DNA of 36,440 bases, taken from IMG/VR virus record IMGVR_UViG_2778261172_000005, positions 1 through 36,440 of that record; one strand, 5' to 3'. The position numbers were made by a program, and so were the translations under genes. The stretch is from a virus (Duplodnaviria; Heunggongvirae; Uroviricota; Caudoviricetes). The notes below the pieces were generated by a model. That model was not told the DNA's origin. It searched no databases and saw only the letters and a program-made list of their open reading frames with translations. Position 1 is the stretch's first letter. Each line of letters starts with the position of its first letter. This document shows positions 1,392 to 28,815 of this stretch, one piece after another.

Positions 1392-1446
1392 AATTCTTAG
1401 AAACCGATCACATACAGCTGCATTTATTAAGGTTATCATCCGTTTC
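1392..1446 (+). promoter_or_regulatory. putative CRP-dependent cyaR promoter (CRP half-site GATCACA about 42 bp upstream of the sRNA 5' end; -10-like TATCAT at about 1434..1439)
   Basis: TCACA half-site at about 1408..1412 with weaker upstream half; TATCAT 8-13 bp before 1447; CyaR is known to be CRP-activated. Confidence 0.4.
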
Positions 1447-1533
1447 GCTGAAAAACATAACCCATAAAATGCTAGCTGTACCAGGAACCACCTCCTTAGC
1501 CTGTGTAATCTCCCTTACACGGGCTTATTTTTT
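1447..1533 (+). ncRNA. cyaR: CyaR (RyeE) Hfq-dependent sRNA, 87 nt, ending in a hairpin plus U-tract
   Basis: Sequence GCTGAAAAACATAACCC...CACCTCCTTAGCCTGTGTAATCTCCCTTACACGGGCTTATTTTTT matches my recollection of E. coli CyaR; lies between yegQ and ogr as in K-12; the terminator hairpin overlaps the att core. Confidence 0.75.
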
Positions 1534-8360: not shown

Positions 8361-8581
8361 TGTCCTGATTTGTACTCACTCATTTTCCGACTGACAATTT
8401 ACATAACCCAAACGCTATCAATTCTGACAGTCTGCTTTGAGCGAAAAGTGGAAGTTCGCAATTATCCTCACCACTGATAAGTAGCCTTTACTTACAATGT
8501 AATGTGTTAGCTAATGTAATAGGAGCTGAGCAGTGAATTATGAATGGATGCTTTAGTTCATATTTGGGAACAAATTACTGT

Positions 8582-8606
8582 AAAAAAAACCGGCTTACAC
8601 CGGTTT
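8582..8606 (-). terminator. rho-independent terminator immediately downstream of the 305-aa cargo gene
   Basis: Inverted repeat AAACCGG/CCGGTTT with 6-nt loop, followed on the minus strand by an 8-T tract (plus-strand AAAAAAAA). Confidence 0.6.
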
Positions 8607-8661
8607 AAACTCGCTCGCGAGAATCACCCCCCAAATTATATGCAAAATTAAAAATACCAAT

Positions 8662-9579
8662 TCACTCCATTTCTCTTTTGGCTAATTCTTCCCATTCGTC
8701 GATTGAGTTATTATAAGGAAATACCTCTTTAACTATGAAAGGAATGTAGCTTTCTTCAGCATTGTGATGTATTTCATTACTGATATTACTTGTGATTCCG
8801 AATTTTACGTCAGGATCGTTTTCAGAGAAATGTATATGAAAAGGTTGTTGACCTAAAGCCTGTCTAATTTTATTTGCTTGTTCTGATGGAAGGACTTTAA
8901 GTAGCTGTTTGAATGTTTTTTTATTAAAGTCTAGAGAAATGGCCATATCAATATCTCCGGGTATCATAGATATGCACGTGTATGACCGTTCGCTCAATCG
9001 ACTAATAAATTTAGTATTTATAGCAGGGGCACTAAAAGAACCATCTTTAACCAAACCCATTTTTCGAATATGAATTCCAAAATCAGGTGCATAACTCAAG
9101 ACATCCGGATTGGCTTTAATATCTGGATTTAATATCCTAAATAATTTTTCCCAGTAATTACCAATGTCTTTCAAAGAAAATCTGAGTATTGGGTGGAGTT
9201 CCCGTATACTATATAGAACAAATTCATTCCCATTGCACAATGCATACATTTCTGCCCTTATTTCTGGATGTATAGCATAACTATAGGCTTGCTCAACGTG
9301 CATGCTTTTGGTTATTTTTTCATTAGGGGCCTTTGCATCAAGAATCCAATATGGTCGGTCGTTAGAAAGAAAAACATAATCCGGTACTATTGAAATCTTT
9401 CTTGGCTGTGAACCTATTGAGACAAATGGATGTGTAAGCGTTTTGCTCCTGATTACACGACTATCTCCCGATGCTTTATAACCAAGAGCTTTAATAATTG
9501 GTAAAATCAACTCTTCTCTGACTGAATCCTCTTTAAATTCATCTGAGCTTAGTAAGTTAAAATCAAAATCATCAAACAT
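8662..9579 (-). CDS. cargo protein with N-terminal PD-(D/E)xK restriction-endonuclease-like domain (HsdR-N/Mrr-like), 305 aa; candidate defence nuclease
   Basis: Motifs E-x...PDYVF...WILDAK...EQAYSYA in the order typical of the PD-(D/E)xK fold; AT-rich gene at the FI-G position where P2 carries Z/fun; own terminator; ATG preceded by a G-run SD. Confidence 0.6.
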   Translation of the reverse strand: MFDDFDFNLLSSDEFKEDSVREELILPIIKALGYKASGDSRVIRSKTLTHPFVSIGSQPRKISIVPDYVFLSNDRPYWILDAKAPNEKITKSMHVEQAYSYAIHPEIRAEMYALCNGNEFVLYSIRELHPILRFSLKDIGNYWEKLFRILNPDIKANPDVLSYAPDFGIHIRKMGLVKDGSFSAPAINTKFISRLSERSYTCISMIPGDIDMAISLDFNKKTFKQLLKVLPSEQANKIRQALGQQPFHIHFSENDPDVKFGITSNISNEIHHNAEESYIPFIVKEVFPYNNSIDEWEELAKREME

Positions 9580-9900
9580 ATCCCCCCCACATATATTTAT
9601 TTGACAAAAGATGTATAATTCAAATTATTCAGAGCCATTGTAAATCACTATAGAATAAAAAGATAATTTCAAGTGGAGGTGTTATCTGATTTTTTGATTT
9701 ATAGCACAAAAAACGACCTCTACAGGCTGTTTATTACGATAGTTAAAGCTGATCACATTTAGGCAGTCAGTCCAAGATGCTCTCTTCAACATGGCCTAGG
9801 TTTTTTTACCGTCGAAGAAGATAATTGTGTCCATAGCATGATGCTTTCAAGTGGTATGATCTCTTTCTCAGTGATTCATGCAGTATGAGCCTAGCAACTT

Positions 9901-9934
9901 CTGCTTCTGGCACAGGGCGGACTTTCTGACTGAG
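9901..9934. repeat. 34-bp direct repeat, copy 1 (CTGCTTCTGGCACAGGGCGGACT...), flanking the DUF2971-like gene
   Basis: About 80 percent identical to 11060..11093, with the first 23 nt matching at 21 positions. Confidence 0.6.
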
Positions 9935-10090
9935 TTGAAGGTCTGCTGCGACCGAATATCGGACATTAATAACCTCAGAGACATAGCGCCCTTGAAATGC
10001 ACCCCTCCAGAAATGAAAATCTGTTATGATACTAGCATAAACTATTTATTTTTCAGTAAAGTTTAGAAAACAAATTTTTATGAATAGAAA

Positions 10091-10113
10091 AAAGGAGAAC
10101 AATGCCCTCCTTC
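10091..10113 (-). terminator. possible terminator downstream of the DUF2971-like gene
   Basis: Inverted repeat AAGGAG/CTCCTT with 9-nt loop, followed by a T-rich run on the minus strand; imperfect. Confidence 0.35.
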
Positions 10114-10130
10114 TTTATTTTTAAATTCTA

Positions 10131-10859
10131 CTACAATTTAATTTTTAGTCTTTTAGGAGCATCGTATAGAGTAGATATTTTTATTTCGGCTTTACAACCC
10201 TTATCCTCAATTGCCAATGTGTATGCCTGCCTTAAGTTTTTTTCCATTCTTGGGTCAAATAGCACGGTGTCTAATAGTTCAACTGGATTAATTTCAAACT
10301 GGAAAATATCATTATCGACACTATTATCATCACCAGAATATATTAAACGAACTTCGCTTTCGTGTTCAAACTCCACGCGTTTGTATAAAAGCGATTCAGC
10401 AATGCCTGAGCCATTAGTGTTGAATAAATCAATTGACAAGAGTTTTTCCGAAAGAGTATCCTCCGGAAGATAAGAAACCTTGCCTATAAAACACCTTAAA
10501 TTATGGTAAGTCGGCTCTGCTTTTTGAAGTGCGGCTAATAGTTTTCTTGGTGTGGTTGAAACTCTTACACCATTTTTATCATGGGAATATATCCGCCACA
10601 TTGCATCGGTTTCACTATGAAATGTCCAGCATTGCCCATAAACAGAATCTCTTGCGGCAACTGTTCCTGTTTGACCATCAGAAGTTTCAATTACACAATT
10701 TAATAAAGCGTTCTCAAAAGGGTCATCCCATTTTCTTGGTTTTACTAAAGTTAATTTTTTTTCTTCAAGCAATTGAAGAAAACGGTGTATTGGCATAATT
10801 CTATAAATAGGTATATCCAATGATTCATCTGTTAAATTAATATAGTTATTATAGCTCAT
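10131..10859 (-). CDS. DUF2971-like cargo protein, 242 aa; candidate single-gene defence or abortive-infection factor
   Basis: N-terminal IYRIMPIHRFLQLLEEKKL...PRKWDDPFE matches my recollection of the DUF2971 signature (YR.P..RF...L...L...P..F.DP.E); strongly AT-rich; flanked by direct repeats. Confidence 0.5.
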   Translation of the reverse strand: MSYNNYINLTDESLDIPIYRIMPIHRFLQLLEEKKLTLVKPRKWDDPFENALLNCVIETSDGQTGTVAARDSVYGQCWTFHSETDAMWRIYSHDKNGVRVSTTPRKLLAALQKAEPTYHNLRCFIGKVSYLPEDTLSEKLLSIDLFNTNGSGIAESLLYKRVEFEHESEVRLIYSGDDNSVDNDIFQFEINPVELLDTVLFDPRMEKNLRQAYTLAIEDKGCKAEIKISTLYDAPKRLKIKL

Positions 10860-11059
10860 ACATATTGACCTTTTGGTAGTTAGTGTAATTAAAAAGGCGG
10901 TTGGGATATTTTAGCAAAAACCTAAGAACTGATTCAACCCTGCGGACTTACAGATTTCAGTTCATATATCCAATGTTATAAATTCTCATTTATGAACTAT
11001 TCTCCTAAAATTTTTTGATTTCAATCTTTAGAGAGCGCAAAAGACCTATGTTCGAATGA

Positions 11060-11093
11060 CTGCTTTTGGCACAGAGCGGACTGTCAGATTAGG
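11060..11093. repeat. 34-bp direct repeat, copy 2; its 5' part also forms a 10-bp inverted repeat (TGGCACAGAG...CTCTGTGCCA, 11067..11108)
   Basis: Matches 9901..9934; the inverted-repeat partner is present only at this copy. Confidence 0.6.
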
Positions 11094-11142
11094 CTTTACT
11101 CTGTGCCATAGATATGTAAGCTCACACCAGAGTTCATACAAC

Positions 11143-11670
11143 TTATTGCGGCATTTCCGGCCATTCAGGATTTGCAGGATCCACACGACTGACCAGAACG
11201 CTGTAGCGTTCCCAAGCCTCCAGCCGTGTGCGCTCCTCCTCTGTTGCCATGTTCAGTCTGACCGCGCGCTCCAGCGGCAAAATCACGGATTCAGCATCTG
11301 CAAGAAGTCTGGCTTTCCGAATTTCTGCCTGCTGCTGTAATTCCTCTGCCGTATAAATGCGTTTAATCACTTTGCCGTCCTTAAACATCCAGCCCCCTGA
11401 AATATCCGCCCGTCGGTTAGCAGTAATATCCGCCACTTCAACCACACTTAATCCATCCGGTCTGATAGCTGTCACATCCTTTTCCACATAGCGGATGATA
11501 TTATCTTTGTCGTACGCTATTTTTATCGTGTCATCAGCAAAATACTTTTGTTCTTCGTACCAGTTCTTACCATCTTCTGTAAAAAACCAGACAACATCAA
11601 AGCCCTTTGTCAATTGATATTGTTCAACTGTTTTTGGATTACCCGCCGTTATATTTATCAAATGCTGCAT
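11143..11670 (-). CDS. G: tail fibre assembly protein (P2 gpG-like)
   Basis: 175-aa ORF downstream of H; sequence and synteny. Confidence 0.85.
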
Positions 11671-15438: not shown

Positions 15439-15786
15439 TCAACTCACAGGGATGGTTAATGAAAGTGGCTGGCCGGTGTCGTTGTGCTGGCCGGTTAACG
15501 TGACCGTCATTCGCCCGTCAAAACTGCGCTCAGTGGTGACGGATGACAGGGTGACGCGGGGTTCCCATTTCAGCACCGCCATGTAACAGGCGACCTTAAT
15601 CTGCAACTCAAGCGCCGGGGTCTGCGGCTGGTCAATCATTGATGCCAGCAACGAGCCGTAATCACGACGCATCACCCGTGAGCCGACCGGTGTGCGCAGG
15701 ATATCGCCGATACTCTGGCTGATATGCTCAAGGTCAGTGACAGTCAGGCCATCACTGCGATTCATTCCGAGATAACGCGCTGTCAT
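15439..15786 (-). CDS. W: baseplate wedge protein (P2 gpW-like)
   Basis: 115-aa ORF; sequence and synteny. Confidence 0.85.
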   Translation of the reverse strand: MTARYLGMNRSDGLTVTDLEHISQSIGDILRTPVGSRVMRRDYGSLLASMIDQPQTPALELQIKVACYMAVLKWEPRVTLSSVTTERSFDGRMTVTLTGQHNDTGQPLSLTIPVS

Positions 15787-16418
15787 AAAGGACTCCCGGT
15801 TGTGCCGCCGCTGTCGCCGGGGTGTTTATGGGTATGCAGTACCTTACCGTTTGATGAGAGTTCACCGCCGGTGTGTTCAATGTTGCCGCGCATCGTCCCG
15901 CCCTTCTGCACTTCCAGCGTGCCGGTAATCAGCTTGTTGGTGCAGACCACCTCCGGTGTGTCCAGGGTGATGCGGGTTGACGCTTTCACCATGACCACCG
16001 GCACCGTGGCAGTAACAGAATCAGAAGCCGTCACGCTGGCCGTTTTAATTCCGCTTACCGTCAGTGAACTGGTTTCGGGTTCATACTCAATCACCGCCCC
16101 GTCAGGGAAACGGATATGCAGGGCATCCGCCGACGCAGACGGCGCGGGATTATCGCCGGAATAAATCCCCGGCAGAACAAACGCCGTGTCGAGTTCACCA
16201 CCCACGGCCAGAATCAGCACCTGTTCCCCCACGGAAGGTGCCCACCATGTGCGCGAACGCCCGGCGCGATGGGTCAGCCACTGAAGCCAGTCGGTGCACA
16301 TGCCGCCGGTCTGCACACGGCAGCGACCGGCGTTAAGGTCAGTTTCGACGATAATGCCGGTGCGAATCATGTTGCGCAGTGCGCGCGCGAGTTCCTGAAT
16401 ATTTGCGAGAGTGTTCAT
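15783..16418 (-). CDS. V: baseplate spike protein (P2 gpV-like)
   Basis: Internal ATG (MNTLANIQELARAL...) gives 211 aa as in P2 gpV; the ORF-track start at 16454 is a TTG extension. Confidence 0.85.
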   Translation of the reverse strand: MNTLANIQELARALRNMIRTGIIVETDLNAGRCRVQTGGMCTDWLQWLTHRAGRSRTWWAPSVGEQVLILAVGGELDTAFVLPGIYSGDNPAPSASADALHIRFPDGAVIEYEPETSSLTVSGIKTASVTASDSVTATVPVVMVKASTRITLDTPEVVCTNKLITGTLEVQKGGTMRGNIEHTGGELSSNGKVLHTHKHPGDSGGTTGSPL

Positions 16419-16495
16419 AACGGGAAGGATGCCGCCGGACGATACCAGCAGCAATCATGGAGGATTCTGTCAGCTGTGACACAACATAATAAATA

Positions 16496-17251
16496 TTAGT
16501 TGTAGCACTTCTCTATAATCTTCATACACTCCTCATGAGCTAAATCATGGCTGTCAAATTCTTTATTAAAAAAGAAGAAAAACGCCTTATTAACCTGAGG
16601 TATTTCAATAAAAATAAATTCATCAGCCTTATGAAAGAAATGAAAACTCTTGTTTGATGTTTCAAAAACCATCAAAGAATTATGTTTTTTATCCTTCCAT
16701 TTCGACATCAGATTGCTTCGCGATTTTCGTATAATCCTGAAGACATCCCCCGGCGTCGTATCGACATCCCCCCAAAACATTGCAACCGGGAAGTTTGCAA
16801 GAAAAGGGATATAATCACCCCCTTTATACCTGAGAAAGCGGGTCCGTAAATCCATTAATTGCAACTTAAAGCCCATGTATTGCAACCACCATATGATGCA
16901 ATCATATTCATAATCTGTTAACTCATCCCCCCTCTTTTCCGTAAGAAATTTCTTCAGGTTATACTCAAACACTCCCAGCAAATCAGAATTGCACACTCTG
17001 CATGCTGGTACAGTGACTTTAATGTAATGAGTTGACTGATTATTCTTTTTATTAATTAAAGATTTTTCAGCATTTGACTCAAAGGCCCACTGAGGAATAA
17101 TGTGCTCACGAGTAATATCGTCAGAGCTCCCGCATAACACACATATATCAGCATTATGGTCAGCAATAATACAATCCATAACTTTCTTTTGAGAATGCTT
17201 TACTCTTTTTCTCAAAATGGAAAACTTTTTATCCACAAACACCCGTCTCAT
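16496..17251 (-). CDS. HNH-family nuclease, 251 aa, inserted between S and V; cargo gene, either a defence factor or a free-standing homing endonuclease
   Basis: CVLCGSSDDITREHIIPQ...N...CRVCN gives a CxxC..EH..N..CxxC HNH motif; strongly AT-rich versus flanks; its ATG overlaps the S stop codon (ATGA); no equivalent gene in canonical P2. Confidence 0.65.
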   Translation of the reverse strand: MRRVFVDKKFSILRKRVKHSQKKVMDCIIADHNADICVLCGSSDDITREHIIPQWAFESNAEKSLINKKNNQSTHYIKVTVPACRVCNSDLLGVFEYNLKKFLTEKRGDELTDYEYDCIIWWLQYMGFKLQLMDLRTRFLRYKGGDYIPFLANFPVAMFWGDVDTTPGDVFRIIRKSRSNLMSKWKDKKHNSLMVFETSNKSFHFFHKADEFIFIEIPQVNKAFFFFFNKEFDSHDLAHEECMKIIEKCYN

Positions 17252-17706
17252 ATAACATCTTTCGATAGAATCACTAATAACTCCCTTTCTATCAATTGTA
17301 TAGATTCCTTGTCAAAACCAAATAACTCACGAACAGGATATTCCACCACCGCACTATTACGCCCCGGCTTATCCCTAAGCCCTAATTGATGTACTCGCGC
17401 AATTCGTTGTACTCCGCTGGCAAACGCCACCACAGCCGCACTCTCGCTACCTGTTGCTTTCATAAACCGGTTAGTGCGTAATTTCACAAACATTTCCCGC
17501 TTTATCCGGCCTTTCTTATTTCGTACTGGTTGGTTTTTTCTCGGTACATACGGCGTACCATCCGGGGCTTTTTGTAATTTAATTCGCTGCTGCTGGCGCT
17601 GGCGCAGCTTCTTCGCAATATCTACCGCCAGTCTCCGACGCCCTGACGGTGACAGCGATTCAGTCAGTCCGGTCAGCCGGTCTTCAAAACGCTTAAACTC
17701 ATTCAT
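17248..17706 (-). CDS. S: tail completion protein S (P2 gpS-like)
   Basis: 152-aa ORF beginning MNEFKRFEDRLTGL...; sequence and synteny. Confidence 0.85.
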   Translation of the reverse strand: MNEFKRFEDRLTGLTESLSPSGRRRLAVDIAKKLRQRQQQRIKLQKAPDGTPYVPRKNQPVRNKKGRIKREMFVKLRTNRFMKATGSESAAVVAFASGVQRIARVHQLGLRDKPGRNSAVVEYPVRELFGFDKESIQLIERELLVILSKDVI

Positions 17707-18166
17707 CCCACTTACTCACCAGTTCGCCATTGATATAAAGCTCCATCGGGCGGGTGACCGGCTCCGGCGGCGGGGGTTCCGGGATATTCTTCACATGCAG
17801 CGCACCGTCAACCTCACTGACCAGCGTGCGCTCGGTCAGCATCAGGCTGATGCTGATATCAAAGCTGCTGTCATTGTTGATGTCCGCATAAAACGTGAAG
17901 CCCTTTTTCTGGCCTTCGTCGGTGGTCATGATGTCGGGCTGATTTTCCCGCAGCCACGCCAGCACCGGCACGATGAGCAGGTCAAAATCACCGTTAAAGT
18001 CGGTCACAATGACATTGAGCGTGTAACACTTTTCGAATGACAGCGACGTCGCCAGTGTGGAGGCAATACTCCCGTTATCCACGAATATCCGCAGCATATC
18101 GGGGTTAGTTTTCAGCACCGTGACGGCATCAGTCAGCGCCCTGCGCAGGCTGTCGGGTTTGAGCAT
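17699..18166 (-). CDS. R: tail completion protein R (P2 gpR-like)
   Basis: 155-aa ORF; sequence and synteny. Confidence 0.85.
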   Translation of the reverse strand: MLKPDSLRRALTDAVTVLKTNPDMLRIFVDNGSIASTLATSLSFEKCYTLNVIVTDFNGDFDLLIVPVLAWLRENQPDIMTTDEGQKKGFTFYADINNDSSFDISISLMLTERTLVSEVDGALHVKNIPEPPPPEPVTRPMELYINGELVSKWDE

Positions 18167-25400: not shown

Positions 25401-26434
25401 TGAGCAAGAAAAAAGGGAAAACACCGCAACCTGCGGCAAAAACAATGACCGCCAGCGGCCCGAAAATGGAGGCATTCACCTTTGGTGAGCCGGTGCCGGT
25501 ACTCGACCGCCGTGACATTCTGGATTACGTCGAGTGCATCAGTAACGGCAGATGGTATGAGCCACCGGTCAGCTTTACCGGTCTGGCAAAAAGCCTGCGG
25601 GCTGCCGTGCATCACAGCTCGCCGATTTACGTCAAACGCAATATTCTGGCCTCGACATTTATCCCGCATCCATGGCTTTCCCAGCAGGATTTCAGCCGCT
25701 TTGTGCTGGATTTTCTGGTGTTCGGTAATGCGTTTCTGGAAAAGCGTTACAGCACCACCGGTAAGGTCATCAGACTGGAAACCTCACCGGCAAAATATAC
25801 CCGCCGTGGCGTGGAAGAGGATGTTTACTGGTGGGTGCCGTCCTTCAACGAGCCGACAGCCTTCGCGCCCGGCTCCGTGTTTCACCTGCTGGAGCCTGAT
25901 ATTAATCAGGAGCTGTACGGCCTGCCGGAATATCTGAGCGCCCTTAACTCTGCCTGGCTGAATGAGTCGGCCACGCTGTTCCGCCGCAAGTATTACGAAA
26001 ACGGCGCACATGCCGGATACATCATGTACGTCACCGATGCCGTGCAGGATCGCAACGATATCGAAATGCTTCGCGAAAACATGGTGAAGTCGAAAGGCCG
26101 CAACAACTTTAAAAACCTGTTTCTCTACGCCCCACAGGGAAAAGCCGACGGTATTAAAATTATCCCGCTCAGTGAAGTGGCAACGAAGGACGATTTTTTT
26201 AATATCAAAAAAGCCAGCGCCGCTGACCTGCTTGACGCGCACCGCATCCCCTTTCAGTTGATGGGTGGCAAGCCGGAAAACGTCGGGTCGCTGGGCGATA
26301 TTGAGAAAGTGGCAAAGGTCTTTGTCCGCAATGAGCTTATCCCGTTACAGGACAGGATTCGGGAAATAAACGGCTGGCTCGGTCAGGAGGTCATCCGCTT
26401 TAAAAACTACTCACTGGACACTGACAACGACTGA
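25400..26434 (+). CDS. Q: portal protein (P2 gpQ-like)
   Basis: 344-aa ORF; start overlaps the P stop (TGATG). Confidence 0.9.
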   Translation: MSKKKGKTPQPAAKTMTASGPKMEAFTFGEPVPVLDRRDILDYVECISNGRWYEPPVSFTGLAKSLRAAVHHSSPIYVKRNILASTFIPHPWLSQQDFSRFVLDFLVFGNAFLEKRYSTTGKVIRLETSPAKYTRRGVEEDVYWWVPSFNEPTAFAPGSVFHLLEPDINQELYGLPEYLSALNSAWLNESATLFRRKYYENGAHAGYIMYVTDAVQDRNDIEMLRENMVKSKGRNNFKNLFLYAPQGKADGIKIIPLSEVATKDDFFNIKKASAADLLDAHRIPFQLMGGKPENVGSLGDIEKVAKVFVRNELIPLQDRIREINGWLGQEVIRFKNYSLDTDND

Positions 26435-26439
26435 ACAAC

Positions 26440-26461
26440 GCCGCCTGCGGGCGGCTTTTTT
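26440..26461 (+). terminator. rho-independent terminator after Q
   Basis: GCCGCC/GGCGGC stem with 4-nt loop followed by TTTTTT, starting 6 bp after the Q stop. Confidence 0.6.
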
Positions 26462-26603
26462 ACACCCCGTCATCACGCCCTCACACACTCACCACCGCAC
26501 AAAACAGCCCGCAGACACACCAACGCCCCGGTGCACAATCTAAACGCCATCAAGACGCGCTCAGACGCTGAAAAAATAAAATCAGCACCACCGCCAGCGC
26601 GCA

Positions 26604-26622
26604 GTGCTTTCCCCGCCTCGCC
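26604..26622. other. cos site (19-nt cohesive end sequence)
   Basis: GTGCTTTCCCCGCCTCGCC is the reverse complement of the P2 cohesive end GGCGAGGCGGGGAAAGCAC as I recall it; lies just beyond Q as in P2. Confidence 0.8.
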
Positions 26623-26975
26623 CGCCCGCTTCACATCGCCTTTTTAATGCAAGTGCAACGATTCAGTGTTCCAAGCATGGTTTTAGGTGAATAGAGAATG
26701 AGAGGGTAAAAAAAATCATGCAGATTAATGCACCTATAGATGCATTATTAAACTAATAGGATAGTTGTGATATTGGCTGCATTGACTCCACTTGTGAGGG
26801 AACAAACCAACGACAGCGCAAGATTCAACCTGACAATTAACTATTCCCCAGAGGGATATTCTTACAGTATTTAAGTCATCAGTTGATTATTCATTAGCAC
26901 TGCCGTTATTGACAATTTTGTTGTTTTTTGAGATGTTATTAAATCAAGTTCCATAGATAAGATCATGGGTGGGCG

Positions 26976-27521
26976 ATGATAAATATTAATGAAGAAATTA
27001 ATAATTCTTTCGATGAGTTTGATGAGGAGGATAAACAGCAAGCTTACTTATCTTTCTTTAAAAATAGTTTCCCTTTTTTACTTTGCCCAACTCTATTCAA
27101 ACGCAGTGAAGATCTCCCTCAATTAAATTGGGTGAAAGTAAAATATACTGAGCATGCGGCTCATACTTTCCCAAATCAACAGGGAGTATATATGTTTATG
27201 GTTGGTTTCGAAAGCACTAAGCTCCCCAATAATTCATATGTTATGTATGTAGGAAAGGCCGGCGATACTAATTCCAACAACACAATCTGCAAAAGGTTTA
27301 AAGATTACGTTAATCCATCTGGATTTAGAGACAGGCCCAGAGTTAAGAAACTCATTCAGCATTTTAGTGAGCATTTATATTATTACTATGCAACACTCCC
27401 AACAGGGCAATCCACAGCAGATGTTGAATCCACTTTAGCCGATATTTTCGCACCACCTTGTTGTCAACGAGATTTTTCAGCTAATGTGCGAAGCTTATTG
27501 AGAGGAGTTAGAATTATATGA
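26976..27521 (+). CDS. GIY-YIG-like nuclease-domain cargo protein, 181 aa; first gene of a two-gene operon at the old/tin position
   Basis: GVYMF...YVMYVGKAGD...RFKDY...E...N, arranged as in the GIY-YIG fold with a longer than usual spacer between the first two motifs; very AT-rich; stop overlaps the next ATG. Confidence 0.5.
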   Translation: MININEEINNSFDEFDEEDKQQAYLSFFKNSFPFLLCPTLFKRSEDLPQLNWVKVKYTEHAAHTFPNQQGVYMFMVGFESTKLPNNSYVMYVGKAGDTNSNNTICKRFKDYVNPSGFRDRPRVKKLIQHFSEHLYYYYATLPTGQSTADVESTLADIFAPPCCQRDFSANVRSLLRGVRII

Positions 27522-28657
27522 ATCAACGTTTAGTCCTTCCATGTTTGAGAGGCTATATGGGGAGCTGGATTACATATAGTTGCATGATGAGACTTTCAGA
27601 TGCATCCAATTTGATCGGGTTTGCTGAGGAACTCCATCAAATTGATAAATTGTCAGACAAAATACAACGTGAATTAAATAATGATAGGGCTGAAGAAATC
27701 TCTCATTATTTGGTTAGCAATGATGATCGCTTCTTTAACTCATTAGTTGTAGCTGTTTATGATGGCGATCCAAATTGGCATGAAATTGGAGGAATAACTC
27801 CAAACAATGAAGAAGCCTCTTTGCTTGATTTTCCTGAGTATGCAGGGAATTGCATTGGTTTTTTATCCATTACAAGAGATGAAAAATTTTTTGCACTTGA
27901 TGGACAACATCGCTTAGCTGGCATCAAAGCTGCTCTTAAAGTTAATAGCGATATTGCTGATGATCTAATTAGCGTTATTATTGTTGCTCATGCTAATACG
28001 CCAGAAGGTAAAGTAAGATCCAGAAGATTATTTACCACTTTAAATAAAAAGGCAAAATTAGTTAGTAAAGATACCATTATAGCTTTAGATGAGGATGATA
28101 TAGCAGCATGCATAACAAGACGTCTAATTGAGGCAGAGGATTTCATATACTTCAATGAAGATAACGTATCCTTTAACTCTGGTCCTGTTAGAGATAAAAC
28201 GAGCATCACATCTATTGTTAATATATATGATAATGTTCAGAAGTTAGTAGCATATAAATTAGGTGTTAAAATTACCGAGTTGGAAAGATACAAGTATAAA
28301 GATCATATTGACATATACAACTTCATTTCTAATTTTTATAGCTACACATTCGAAGGATGTGAAGAGTTAATCAAAGTAGCTAAAGGTGAACAACCTGCTG
28401 GATTTTATAGAAATTCCGAAACTGGTGGGCATATTTTGTTTAGACCTATTGGTTGGGATTTATATACAGATATAGTACTCTATGCCATGACTCATTTTAA
28501 TCATGACCTTAAAAAGGCAATTCAACACATCACCAAACACAATCTAAACATGTCTGGCTCTATTCTATCCAACAAAGTTTGGTCAACAAAACAAAAGAAA
28601 ATCCTTAAGATAAGTGCTAAAAACATAAAAGCAATACAAAAAAGTTTGTTATCATAA
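27518..28657 (+). CDS. DGQHR-domain (DndB/ParB-like) cargo protein, 379 aa; second gene of the operon
   Basis: Exact signature FFALDGQHRLAGIK preceded by a QR motif, as in the DGQHR/DndB family; AGGAG Shine-Dalgarno inside the end of the upstream gene; ATGA overlap; AT-rich. Confidence 0.6.
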   Translation: MNQRLVLPCLRGYMGSWITYSCMMRLSDASNLIGFAEELHQIDKLSDKIQRELNNDRAEEISHYLVSNDDRFFNSLVVAVYDGDPNWHEIGGITPNNEEASLLDFPEYAGNCIGFLSITRDEKFFALDGQHRLAGIKAALKVNSDIADDLISVIIVAHANTPEGKVRSRRLFTTLNKKAKLVSKDTIIALDEDDIAACITRRLIEAEDFIYFNEDNVSFNSGPVRDKTSITSIVNIYDNVQKLVAYKLGVKITELERYKYKDHIDIYNFISNFYSYTFEGCEELIKVAKGEQPAGFYRNSETGGHILFRPIGWDLYTDIVLYAMTHFNHDLKKAIQHITKHNLNMSGSILSNKVWSTKQKKILKISAKNIKAIQKSLLS

Positions 28658-28687
28658 ATCAATTGATACTATATTACTGTACAGTTT

Positions 28688-28712
28688 AAAAACCGCCAAT
28701 CAGGCGGTTTTT
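28688..28712. terminator. bidirectional rho-independent terminator after the cargo operon
   Basis: Perfect 10-bp inverted repeat AAAAACCGCC/GGCGGTTTTT with 5-nt loop; A-tract upstream and T-tract downstream. Confidence 0.65.
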
Positions 28713-28815
28713 AAACTGTCAACCAAGCGTTTCTTGAGCGGTTTACATTCTTAAACCAGTGCCGTATTTAACTAAACATAACATTCCAGCCAATCTGACA
28801 GGTCAGTAACATCCG

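What the first reader, a model, noticed from the sequence alone, without database searches (positions are those of the whole stretch)
16419..17261. HNH nuclease gene inserted between tail genes S and V and translationally coupled to S
Seen in sequence: a 251-aa ORF (16496..17251) with a CxxC...EH...N...CxxC HNH motif in its first 100 aa and an unrecognised C-terminal domain; its ATG overlaps the S stop (ATGA); composition is strikingly AT-rich against the GC-rich neighbours; only 77 bp remain between it and V. Established knowledge: canonical P2 has no gene here and the S-V junction is where the late promoter for V sits. Free-standing HNH homing endonucleases in phages are typically AT-rich intergenic insertions, and HNH proteins also serve as defence effectors. 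Inference: either a selfish homing endonuclease that invaded the junction or a late-expressed nuclease cargo; both would be unusual for this phage family.
Basis: partly seen in the sequence, partly recalled or inferred. Interest (0 to 1): 0.7.

Follow-up and report, generated by a model that had tools for sequence, protein, structure and literature searches.

The report
HNH-like cargo gene in P2 S–V hotspot
A real, conserved gene for a probable DNA-cutting (HNH-type) enzyme of unknown role sits in an E. coli P2-like prophage, at a place already known to collect foreign genes, so it is an ordinary kind of phage cargo and a reasonable but untested candidate for a new one-gene anti-phage defence.

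Summary
The ORF is real: minus strand, 16496-17251, 36% GC against a 55-60% backbone, under purifying selection (dN/dS about 0.2). All HNH motif residues (C37xxC40, E49-H50, N70, C84xxC87-N88) are invariant across relatives. Profile support is consistent but weak: Pfam HNH_5 is the commonest match, found in 27 of 27 family members, always below Pfam's threshold.

Canonical P2 carries orf30 between S and V, and this junction is one of three published foreign-gene sites in P2-like phages. The same ORF was already noted in phage R18C. Among close relatives the junction is empty in about half. Elsewhere it holds orf30, this ORF (4-9%), or other AT-rich cargo, including a cytidylate-cyclase plus membrane-protein pair, an alarmone-synthetase homologue and a PADLOC defence candidate.

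The insert's left edge lies inside S: its last ~100 nt are AT-rich and travel with the ORF. RefSeq and the family consensus start at a GTG 15 nt downstream of the ATGA.

Relatives at about 40% identity occur outside phages, next to restriction, Abi-type and candidate defence genes, and next to integron integrases.

Best reading: a hotspot cargo nuclease in phage-phage conflict. Homing is less likely. Expression timing and activity are untested.

The parts
16496..17251 (-). Cargo ORF. 251 aa from the ATG at 17251, or 246 aa from the GTG at 17236, which is the RefSeq and family-consensus start. Stop codon at 16496-16498.
   Evidence: PHROG 10503 full-length match, E=8e-178, function unknown. dN/dS about 0.2.
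16952..17158 (-). Predicted His-Me finger (HNH_5-like) nuclease core, residues 32-100. Motif: H32, C37xxC40-G, T47-x-E49-H50-xx-P53, N70-N71-Q72, C84xxC87-N88.
16499..16774 (-). Family-specific C-terminal alpha/beta domain (about residues 160-251) with no recognisable relatives. A long helix (residues 113-142) and a poorly modelled linker precede it.
17248..17347 (-). AT-rich 3' end of gene S (last ~100 nt, about the last 30 codons of gpS). It belongs to the cargo module, not to the backbone.
   Evidence: GC is 0.34-0.44 here against 0.52-0.60 for the rest of S in every ORF-carrying phage. It is 0.51-0.62 in phages with an empty junction. The gpS C-terminus differs...SIQLIERELLVILSKDVI here...VQMIEEIILAHLER in P2.
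17248..17706 (-). Gene S (tail completion / virion morphogenesis), 152 aa. The allele diverges from the P2/Wphi allele after S nt ~78 (window ~17629).
   Evidence: The middle part of this S allele also occurs with a different cargo, an ATPase.
16419..16495 (-). 77-bp spacer between the ORF stop and the V start. It is the Wphi-type S-V intergenic region and holds the V late-promoter region.
   Evidence: It aligns over its whole length with the 66-bp Wphi S-V spacer. P2 annotation places the pV activator site in the equivalent position.
16468..16483 (-). Dyad TGTGTCACAGCTGACA (TGT-N10-ACA), centred ~57 nt upstream of the V ATG. Probable Ogr-type activator site of pV, left intact by the insert.
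   Evidence: Same register as TGTGCCATTCCCGACA in Wphi, and conserved downstream of the ORF in other carriers (L009, L078, L089). The function is inferred from P2 annotation.
15783..16418 (-). Gene V (baseplate spike), 211 aa. P2-type backbone resumes here.
   Evidence: Matches at 95-99% identity in about 1,500 complete E. coli genomes.

Best explanation
The feature is a horizontally acquired accessory ('cargo') gene in the long-known S-V (orf30) variable locus of P2-like phages.

The protein has three parts. An N-terminal helical hairpin is followed by a zinc-stabilised His-Me finger (HNH_5-type) nuclease core. In that core H50 would act as general base, N88 as metal ligand, and the four cysteines would hold a structural zinc. 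The last part is a family-specific helical plus alpha/beta C-terminal region, which I infer regulates or targets the nuclease.

The gene arrived by homologous recombination with another P2-like phage. The exchanged block is S codons ~125-152 plus the ORF. It ends exactly at the pV activator site, so tail-gene expression is untouched.

Its most likely role is in conflict between mobile elements: a single-gene nuclease that cuts DNA of competing phages or elements, that is, defence or exclusion.

Shown: gene reality, conservation, motif, locus, boundaries, distribution and neighbourhood associations.
Inferred: nuclease activity, the defence role, and the timing of expression. The architecture predicts read-through transcription from the late pO operon behind S. 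Expression in the lysogen is not demonstrated.
For: Locus:
- P2 has orf30 at this position. The literature names the TO, Z and orf30 regions as the acquisition sites (PMC3091744). The R18C paper notes this ORF.
- The junction is multi-allelic in two phage lineages.
- In complete E. coli genomes: V at 1812 places, orf30 at 482, this ORF at 79 places in 77 genomes, the ATPase at 12.

Other cargo at the same junction is defence-like:
- A 414-aa ATPase matches PADLOC candidate PDC-S59, E=2.8e-31.
- A cytidylate-cyclase homologue (PDB 8jsf, E=1.8e-25) is paired with a 179-aa hydrophobic, apparently membrane-spanning protein, a Pycsar-like arrangement.
- A RelA/SpoT-type synthetase carries a C-terminal extension (E=1e-15).

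This prophage's other two AT-rich islands hold PDC-S31 (E=1e-94) and a DndB-like protein.

Family relatives at 37-41% identity outside phages have no conserved partner gene. Defence-type genes lie within ~2.5 kb in 5 of 9 loci probed:
- PDC-M02A/DUF4365, with a RES toxin on the other side (L014).
- A type IV methyl-directed restriction enzyme (L017).
- AbiZ (L022).
- A Mokosh/PDC-S37-like helicase (L020).
- PDC-S31 (L016).
Two further loci abut integron integrases (TIGR02249, E=1e-131).

Nuclease assignment. Selection.
Against: - No PADLOC model matches the protein (best E=0.041), and NCBIfam has no match.
- The defence role rests on guilt by association in a small, hand-picked set of loci with no formal background rate.
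- The gene lies on the same strand as the late genes. In all ~50 P2-like carriers examined it lies 15-40 nt after S (or, in the E. coli subgroup, overlaps the S stop if the ATG is used).
- Neither a sigma-70 promoter nor a terminator is detectable above chance. The best candidate is TTGACA-18-TAGAAA at 17315, which lacks the critical T and is not conserved. This points to late lytic expression rather than the lysogenic expression expected of a prophage defence gene.
- The Pfam HNH_5 score is below threshold. Whole-protein fold searches found nothing, and the profile search against PDB sequences found nothing.
Confidence: 0.55

Rival explanations
1. Free-standing HNH homing endonuclease. It would be expressed late during co-infection or induction and cut the S-V region of P2-like genomes that lack it. 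It would then be copied in by recombinational repair. The recoded AT-rich 3' end of S would be both the co-converted flank and the cleavage-resistant allele.
For: - His-Me finger group 1, which contains PF14279, also includes the T4 Mob homing endonucleases (PMC5714182).
- Presence/absence polymorphism occurs at one fixed site among phages with 95-99% identical flanks.
- The gene always has the same orientation and position directly behind S.
- The linked variant of the S 3' end and S allele resembles a co-conversion tract.
- Degenerate, frameshifted copies exist (L100 and L104; truncated P0035 and P0036).
Against: - The same junction holds many unrelated genes, so the site is a general recombination hotspot.
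- Full-length relatives occur in bacterial chromosomes with no P2 genes nearby.
- No Pfam DNA-binding module passes threshold in any of 27 family members.
- The ORF has diverged about as much as the flanking structural genes across distant P2-like lineages (45-71% against 51-87%), and is under purifying selection.
Confidence: 0.17
2. A lytic-cycle helper nuclease that benefits the phage itself. It could degrade host DNA, process DNA for packaging, or act against P4-like satellites or host defences. It would be made with the late proteins because it is the last gene of the pO transcription unit.
For: - It is co-oriented with and abuts S in every carrier.
- It has no promoter or terminator of its own.
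- Its stop codon is followed within ~15 nt by the pV activator dyad.
- Viable phage R18C carries it.
Against: - It is dispensable. It is absent from P2, Wphi, L-413C and more than 90% of relatives.
- The non-phage relatives cannot have a P2-specific lytic function.
- There is no similarity to terminase-associated HNH proteins beyond the generic motif.
Confidence: 0.15
3. Inert or decaying passenger DNA: an ORF kept only because it hitch-hiked with an S allele.
For: - Some copies are frameshifted or truncated.
- It is at low frequency, 4-9% of relatives.
Against: - dN/dS is about 0.2.
- 50 invariant columns persist across 27 sequences down to 41% identity, including every catalytic and zinc residue.
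- 35 representative sequences match at E<1e-30 (about two dozen of them full-length), and full-length relatives occur in several bacterial phyla.
Confidence: 0.03

Closest known systems
P2 orf30 and the S-V ('orf30') variable region of P2-like phages
   Same: Same genomic slot between S and V. Both are AT-rich, non-essential and patchily distributed. Both are regarded as horizontally acquired.
   Different: There is no sequence relationship to Orf30, which by eye looks hydrophobic and has no Pfam or PADLOC match. Orf30 is on the opposite strand and leaves S intact. This ORF is on the late strand, abuts S and brings its own version of the S 3' end.
Pfam HNH_5 (PF14279) / His-Me finger superfamily group 1
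   Different: It scores below the Pfam threshold because a ~25-residue insert separates the two halves of the motif, so only profile positions 1-21 align. The C-terminal 150 residues have no counterpart in characterised HNH proteins.
Prophage-borne defence genes in the other P2 hotspots (old, tin, fun/Z; Rousset 2022, Vassallo 2022)
   Same: It is an AT-rich gene in a P2 variable locus. Its neighbours in the same prophage, and alternative alleles at the same locus, are defence genes or candidates.
   Different: No phenotype is known, it is not in PADLOC, and it shows no sign of an independent promoter.
Free-standing HNH homing endonucleases of phages (T4 MobA-E, I-HmuI)
   Same: An HNH nuclease gene placed between conserved phage genes, patchy among close relatives and co-transcribed with its neighbours.
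   Different: No Pfam DNA-binding module passes threshold. Relatives live outside phages. The site is shared with unrelated cargo.

Membership tests
His-Me finger / HNH nuclease (Pfam HNH_5, PF14279) | Catalytic His preceded by an acidic residue at the end of strand 1, a structural Asn, and a metal-binding Asn/His on the following helix | tested here: met
   E49-H50, N70/N71 and N88 are invariant in 27 sequences. The model has strands at 46-50 and 80-84 and a helix from residue 85.
His-Me finger / HNH nuclease (Pfam HNH_5, PF14279) | Two CxxC pairs flanking the core (structural zinc) | tested here: met
   C37, C40, C84 and C87 are invariant.
His-Me finger / HNH nuclease (Pfam HNH_5, PF14279) | Score at or above Pfam's gathering threshold (27.5 bits) | tested here: not met
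   16.1 bits, E=0.011, for this protein. 27/27 members match at E<=0.1, best 6.4e-5, all below threshold. A profile-linked relative, P0134, scores 30.8 bits.
His-Me finger / HNH nuclease (Pfam HNH_5, PF14279) | Beta-beta-alpha-metal fold | tested here: inconclusive
His-Me finger / HNH nuclease (Pfam HNH_5, PF14279) | Metal-dependent nuclease activity | not testable with these tools
   Needs purified protein.
Cargo ('moron') of the P2 S-V / orf30 variable region | Lies between S and V, is absent from close relatives, and the site holds unrelated genes in other phages | tested here: met
Cargo ('moron') of the P2 S-V / orf30 variable region | Base composition unlike the backbone | tested here: met
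   GC 0.36 against 0.55-0.60.
Cargo ('moron') of the P2 S-V / orf30 variable region | Own promoter and terminator (moron in the strict sense) | tested here: not met
   Consensus scans found nothing above chance. Only a weak, non-conserved TTGACA-18-TAGAAA was found.
Free-standing phage homing endonuclease | Presence/absence polymorphism at one fixed site between conserved genes | tested here: met
Free-standing phage homing endonuclease | Site-specific DNA-binding module attached to the nuclease | tested here: inconclusive
   No Pfam DNA-binding module passes threshold. The C-terminal domain is of unknown fold and could bind DNA.
Free-standing phage homing endonuclease | Family confined to its homing site in phage, intron or intein contexts | tested here: not met
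   Relatives at 37-41% identity sit in chromosomes without P2 genes. Unrelated cargo uses the same site.
Free-standing phage homing endonuclease | Cleaves the insert-free allele and shows super-Mendelian inheritance | not testable with these tools
   Needs a cleavage assay and phage crosses.
Single-gene anti-phage defence system | Matches a model of a known or candidate defence protein | tested here: not met
   The best PADLOC hit is PDC-M01B at E=0.041. Ten relatives gave no hit.
Single-gene anti-phage defence system | Found next to defence genes and in defence hotspots | tested here: met
   5 of 9 non-phage loci have defence hits within ~2.5 kb. The same P2 junction elsewhere holds PDC-S59, a cytidylate cyclase with a membrane protein, and an alarmone synthetase. 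The sample is small and there is no background model.
Single-gene anti-phage defence system | Protects cells against phage | not testable with these tools
   Needs a challenge assay.
Integron gene cassette (non-phage relatives only) | Adjacent to intI and bounded by attC | tested here: inconclusive
   An integron integrase lies next to the gene in L023 and L029. A simple attC pattern search found none. No proper attC model was available.

The most novel reading that the evidence does not exclude
The gene is not a lysogen-protecting defence gene but a nuclease of the late operon, made with the tail proteins. It would act during the P2-like lytic cycle, either against parasites of that cycle (P4-like satellites or co-induced prophages) or as a homing enzyme. 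The recoded last ~30 codons of gpS that always travel with it would be functionally tied to it, as its resistant target allele or as its expression signal. That would make it a phage-side weapon built into a structural operon.
Probability: 0.15. Interest if true: 0.7.

Novelty: new member of a known kind. Interest (0 to 1): 0.35.

Why it matters
The S-V junction has been overshadowed by the tin/old and Z/fun hotspots in recent work on P2 defence genes. The data here show it is just as polymorphic, and that it carries recognisable defence genes. Its uncharacterised occupants, this HNH-like family included, are therefore sensible candidates for new anti-phage or anti-satellite functions.

The family is compact (about 250 aa, single gene), spans several bacterial phyla, and has no structural or functional annotation. 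A viable phage that carries it (R18C) exists, so the question can be tested directly.

In itself the finding is not surprising to a P2 specialist.

Tried and rejected
- Weak Pfam matches to Endonuclease_1 (9/27 members) and JetD_C (7/27, best 4e-4) were treated as noise, because no catalytic motif supports them.
- The promoter/terminator scan gave counts no higher than in shuffled sequence. A manual search for a promoter inside the S 3' end gave only a weak, non-conserved candidate, and no Ogr-type dyad upstream of the ORF.
- A search for a conserved partner gene in 18 non-phage loci found none.
- An attC pattern search around the non-phage relatives was negative, so I do not call them integron cassettes.
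- A co-divergence test of ORF identity against S/V/R identity gave no usable signal outside the near-identical group.
- Rfam and tRNA scans found nothing in the region.
- Two literature searches for a described function of this family or this locus found nothing beyond the papers cited.

Full report
**What is there.**
The window is a P2-like (Peduovirus) prophage of E. coli. It is 100% identical over this region to strain JNEC-KY180. The late genes read on the minus strand:

| Gene | Coordinates |
|---|---|
| R | 17699-18166 |
| S | 17248-17706 |
| the ORF | 16496-17251 |
| V | 15783-16418 |
| W, J, I | downstream of V |

The ORF is 251 aa from an ATG that overlaps the S stop as ATGA. 77 bp separate it from V. 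GC falls to 0.32-0.41 across it, against 0.53-0.61 on both sides.

**Start codon.**
The family consensus begins MDKKF. In the window that position is GTG at 17236. R18C has ATG there and annotates 741 bp. RefSeq annotates the identical E. coli gene as 741 bp, starting 11 nt after the S stop. In other P2-like lineages the gene starts 15-40 nt after S without overlap. The ATGA overlap is real but is probably not the start that is used. Either way the gene abuts S.

**Is it a gene, and is it an HNH protein?**
- It matches PHROG 10503 (function unknown) end to end.
- It has 42 word-index homologues and 855 profile hits, 35 of them at E<1e-30.
- In a 27-sequence alignment reaching 41% identity, 50 columns are invariant. 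These include H32, C37, C40, E49, H50, P53, N70, C84, C87 and N88.
- Pairwise dN/dS is about 0.2.
- Pfam HNH_5 matches at E=0.011, below threshold. It is nevertheless the commonest match in the family, seen in 27/27 members (best 6.4e-5), and in 8 of 10 more distant relatives, one above threshold.
- Only the first half of the HNH_5 profile aligns, because ~25 residues separate the two halves of the motif.
- A model of the whole protein is confident (pLDDT 78, pTM 0.81) but has no meaningful neighbours in the PDB.
- I accept an HNH_5-like His-Me finger core as likely. The C-terminal ~150 residues remain unassigned.

**The locus is a known cargo site.**
- P2 itself carries Orf30 (786 bp, non-essential, opposite strand) between S and V. 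It has a terminator after S and the pV activator site before V.
- Wphi and many others have only 66 bp there.
- PMC3091744 states that the TO region, the Z region and orf30 are where genes not found in P2 commonly appear in P2-like phages.
- PMC6823313 describes this same 741-bp ORF in R18C as replacing orf30.
- The recent defence-hotspot papers concentrate on the tin/old and Z/fun sites. A 2026 preprint lumps the late-region sites together as 'downstream of GpL'.

**How variable is the junction?**

| Sample | Empty | orf30 | This ORF | Other AT-rich cargo |
|---|---|---|---|---|
| 78 IMG/VR contigs, V at least 94% identical to the window's | 42 | 17 | 7 | 12, in at least six types |
| 78 contigs of a Klebsiella-type lineage | 38 | counted under 'other' | 4 | 36, in many size classes |

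In 5,426 complete E. coli genomes, V occurs at 1,812 places, orf30 at 482, this ORF at 79 (77 genomes), and a 414-aa ATPase at 12.

Some of the other cargo is recognisably defence-like:
- The ATPase matches PADLOC candidate PDC-S59 (E=2.8e-31).
- L206 holds a cytidylate-cyclase homologue (PDB 8jsf, E=1.8e-25) next to a 179-aa hydrophobic, apparently membrane-spanning protein, a Pycsar-like pair.
- L193 holds a RelA/SpoT-type synthetase with a C-terminal extension.
- L115, a distant P2-like phage, has a 365-aa protein on the opposite strand between S and V. It shares only the HNH_5-like N-terminus.

**Boundaries.**
- Right edge: the foreign block ends ~12 nt after the ORF stop. What follows aligns with the complete Wphi spacer. 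It includes the dyad TGTGTCACAGCTGACA ~57 nt before the V ATG and a GC-rich hairpin in the V leader.
- Left edge: the boundary is inside S. In every carrier the last ~100 nt of S have GC 0.34-0.44 while the rest of S has 0.52-0.60. Phages with an empty junction have 0.51-0.62 there.
- The C-terminal ~20-30 residues of gpS differ accordingly.
- In the window the S allele departs from the P2/Wphi allele already after nt ~78. The middle part of that allele also occurs with the ATPase cargo. There are therefore nested recombination events with breakpoints inside S.

**Family distribution.**
- All relatives at 45% identity or more (about 50 loci) sit in R-S-ORF-V order on the late strand. Their P2-like phages have structural proteins only 51-87% identical to the window's.
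- A second group at 37-41% identity occurs in Vibrio, Photobacterium, Shewanella, Halomonas, Psychromonas, Bacteroidota, Desulfobacter-like genomes, a Gracilibacteria genome and others. It has no P2 genes nearby and no conserved neighbour.
- Of nine such loci whose neighbours I scanned, five have defence-type genes within ~2.5 kb:
  - PDC-M02A, with a RES toxin on the other side;
  - a type IV methyl-directed restriction enzyme;
  - AbiZ;
  - a Mokosh/PDC-S37-like helicase;
  - PDC-S31.
- Two other loci abut integron integrases, though a simple attC search was negative.

**Expression.**
No sigma-70-type promoter or intrinsic terminator stands out between S and V. The best candidate inside S (TTGACA-18-TAGAAA) lacks the key T and is not conserved. 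The simplest reading is co-transcription with the late pO operon. That fits poorly with a classical prophage defence gene. It keeps open a lytic-cycle role or homing.

**Verdict.**
- The framing as an unusual invasion of a normally empty junction is not supported.
- The most likely explanation is an accessory HNH_5-like nuclease carried as one of many alternative alleles of the P2 S-V cargo hotspot, probably used in conflict with other phages or elements (confidence about 0.55).
- Homing endonuclease (about 0.17) and a lytic-cycle helper (about 0.15) remain possible.
- It is a new, uncharacterised member of a known kind of feature, of moderate to low interest.
- One curious detail is unexplained: the gene always brings its own AT-rich version of the end of gene S.

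Noticed in passing
window 8400-11400 (ORFs 8662-9579 and 10131-10859, minus strand): A second AT-rich island (GC 0.35-0.42) at the Z/fun position. The 242-aa protein matches PADLOC candidate PDC-S31 (E=1e-94). The 305-aa protein weakly matches a type IIG restriction-methylase N-terminus (E=9e-6).
   Followed up: partly
window 26400-28800 (ORFs 26976-27521 and 27518-28657, plus strand): A third AT-rich island (GC 0.32-0.44) at the tin/old (TO) position. It holds an overlapping gene pair: a 181-aa protein with no hit and a 379-aa protein with a DndB-like match (E=2.8e-20).
   Followed up: partly
window 1445-1530 (+): A CyaR/RyeE small RNA gene (Rfam RF00112, 100.7 bits) lies near the left end of the window, so the window's left end is probably host chromosome, with the prophage beginning to its right; I did not map the attachment site.
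   Followed up: no
window 16431-16452 (-): An imperfect GC-rich hairpin (GCTGCTGG-TATCGT-CCGGCGGC) in the V leader, between the presumed pV promoter and the V ATG. It is conserved in Wphi and in other carriers and has no T-run. Its function is unknown.
   Followed up: no
L206 (IMG/VR 2534681782_000022), S-V gap, ~2 kb upstream of V: A P2-like phage carries a Pycsar-like pair at the S-V junction: a 179-aa hydrophobic, apparently membrane-spanning protein plus a 462-aa cytidylate-cyclase homologue.
   Followed up: partly
L193 and L195, S-V gap of 1308 bp: A 366-aa RelA/SpoT-type synthetase with a ~150-aa C-terminal extension (a toxSAS/CapRel-like architecture) sits at the same junction. Membership of CapRel was not tested.
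   Followed up: partly
L115 5983-7080 (+): A distant P2-like phage (GC 0.59) has a 365-aa protein between S and V, on the opposite strand. It shares only the HNH_5-like N-terminal ~120 residues with the window protein. The same nuclease superfamily has therefore been recruited to this site more than once.
   Followed up: partly
L006-L008, L093-L096, L011/L094: In some Klebsiella-type phages the ORF stays next to S and further cargo lies between it and V: a 216-aa protein on the opposite strand in L006-L008 (no Pfam or PADLOC hit), and an enlarged, unexamined gap in the other loci listed. Cargo can therefore stack at this site.
   Followed up: partly
L010 (labelled Sporobacter termitidis MAG) and L011 (labelled Chryseobacterium sp.): These contigs carry enterobacterial-type P2-like prophage genes 60-80% identical to the window's. 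They are probably mis-binned or contaminant contigs in those assemblies.
   Followed up: no
L156 and L201, S-V gap of 1727 bp: A 508-aa protein with a P-loop ATPase N-terminus and a C-terminal stretch that looks TIR-like by eye.
   Followed up: no
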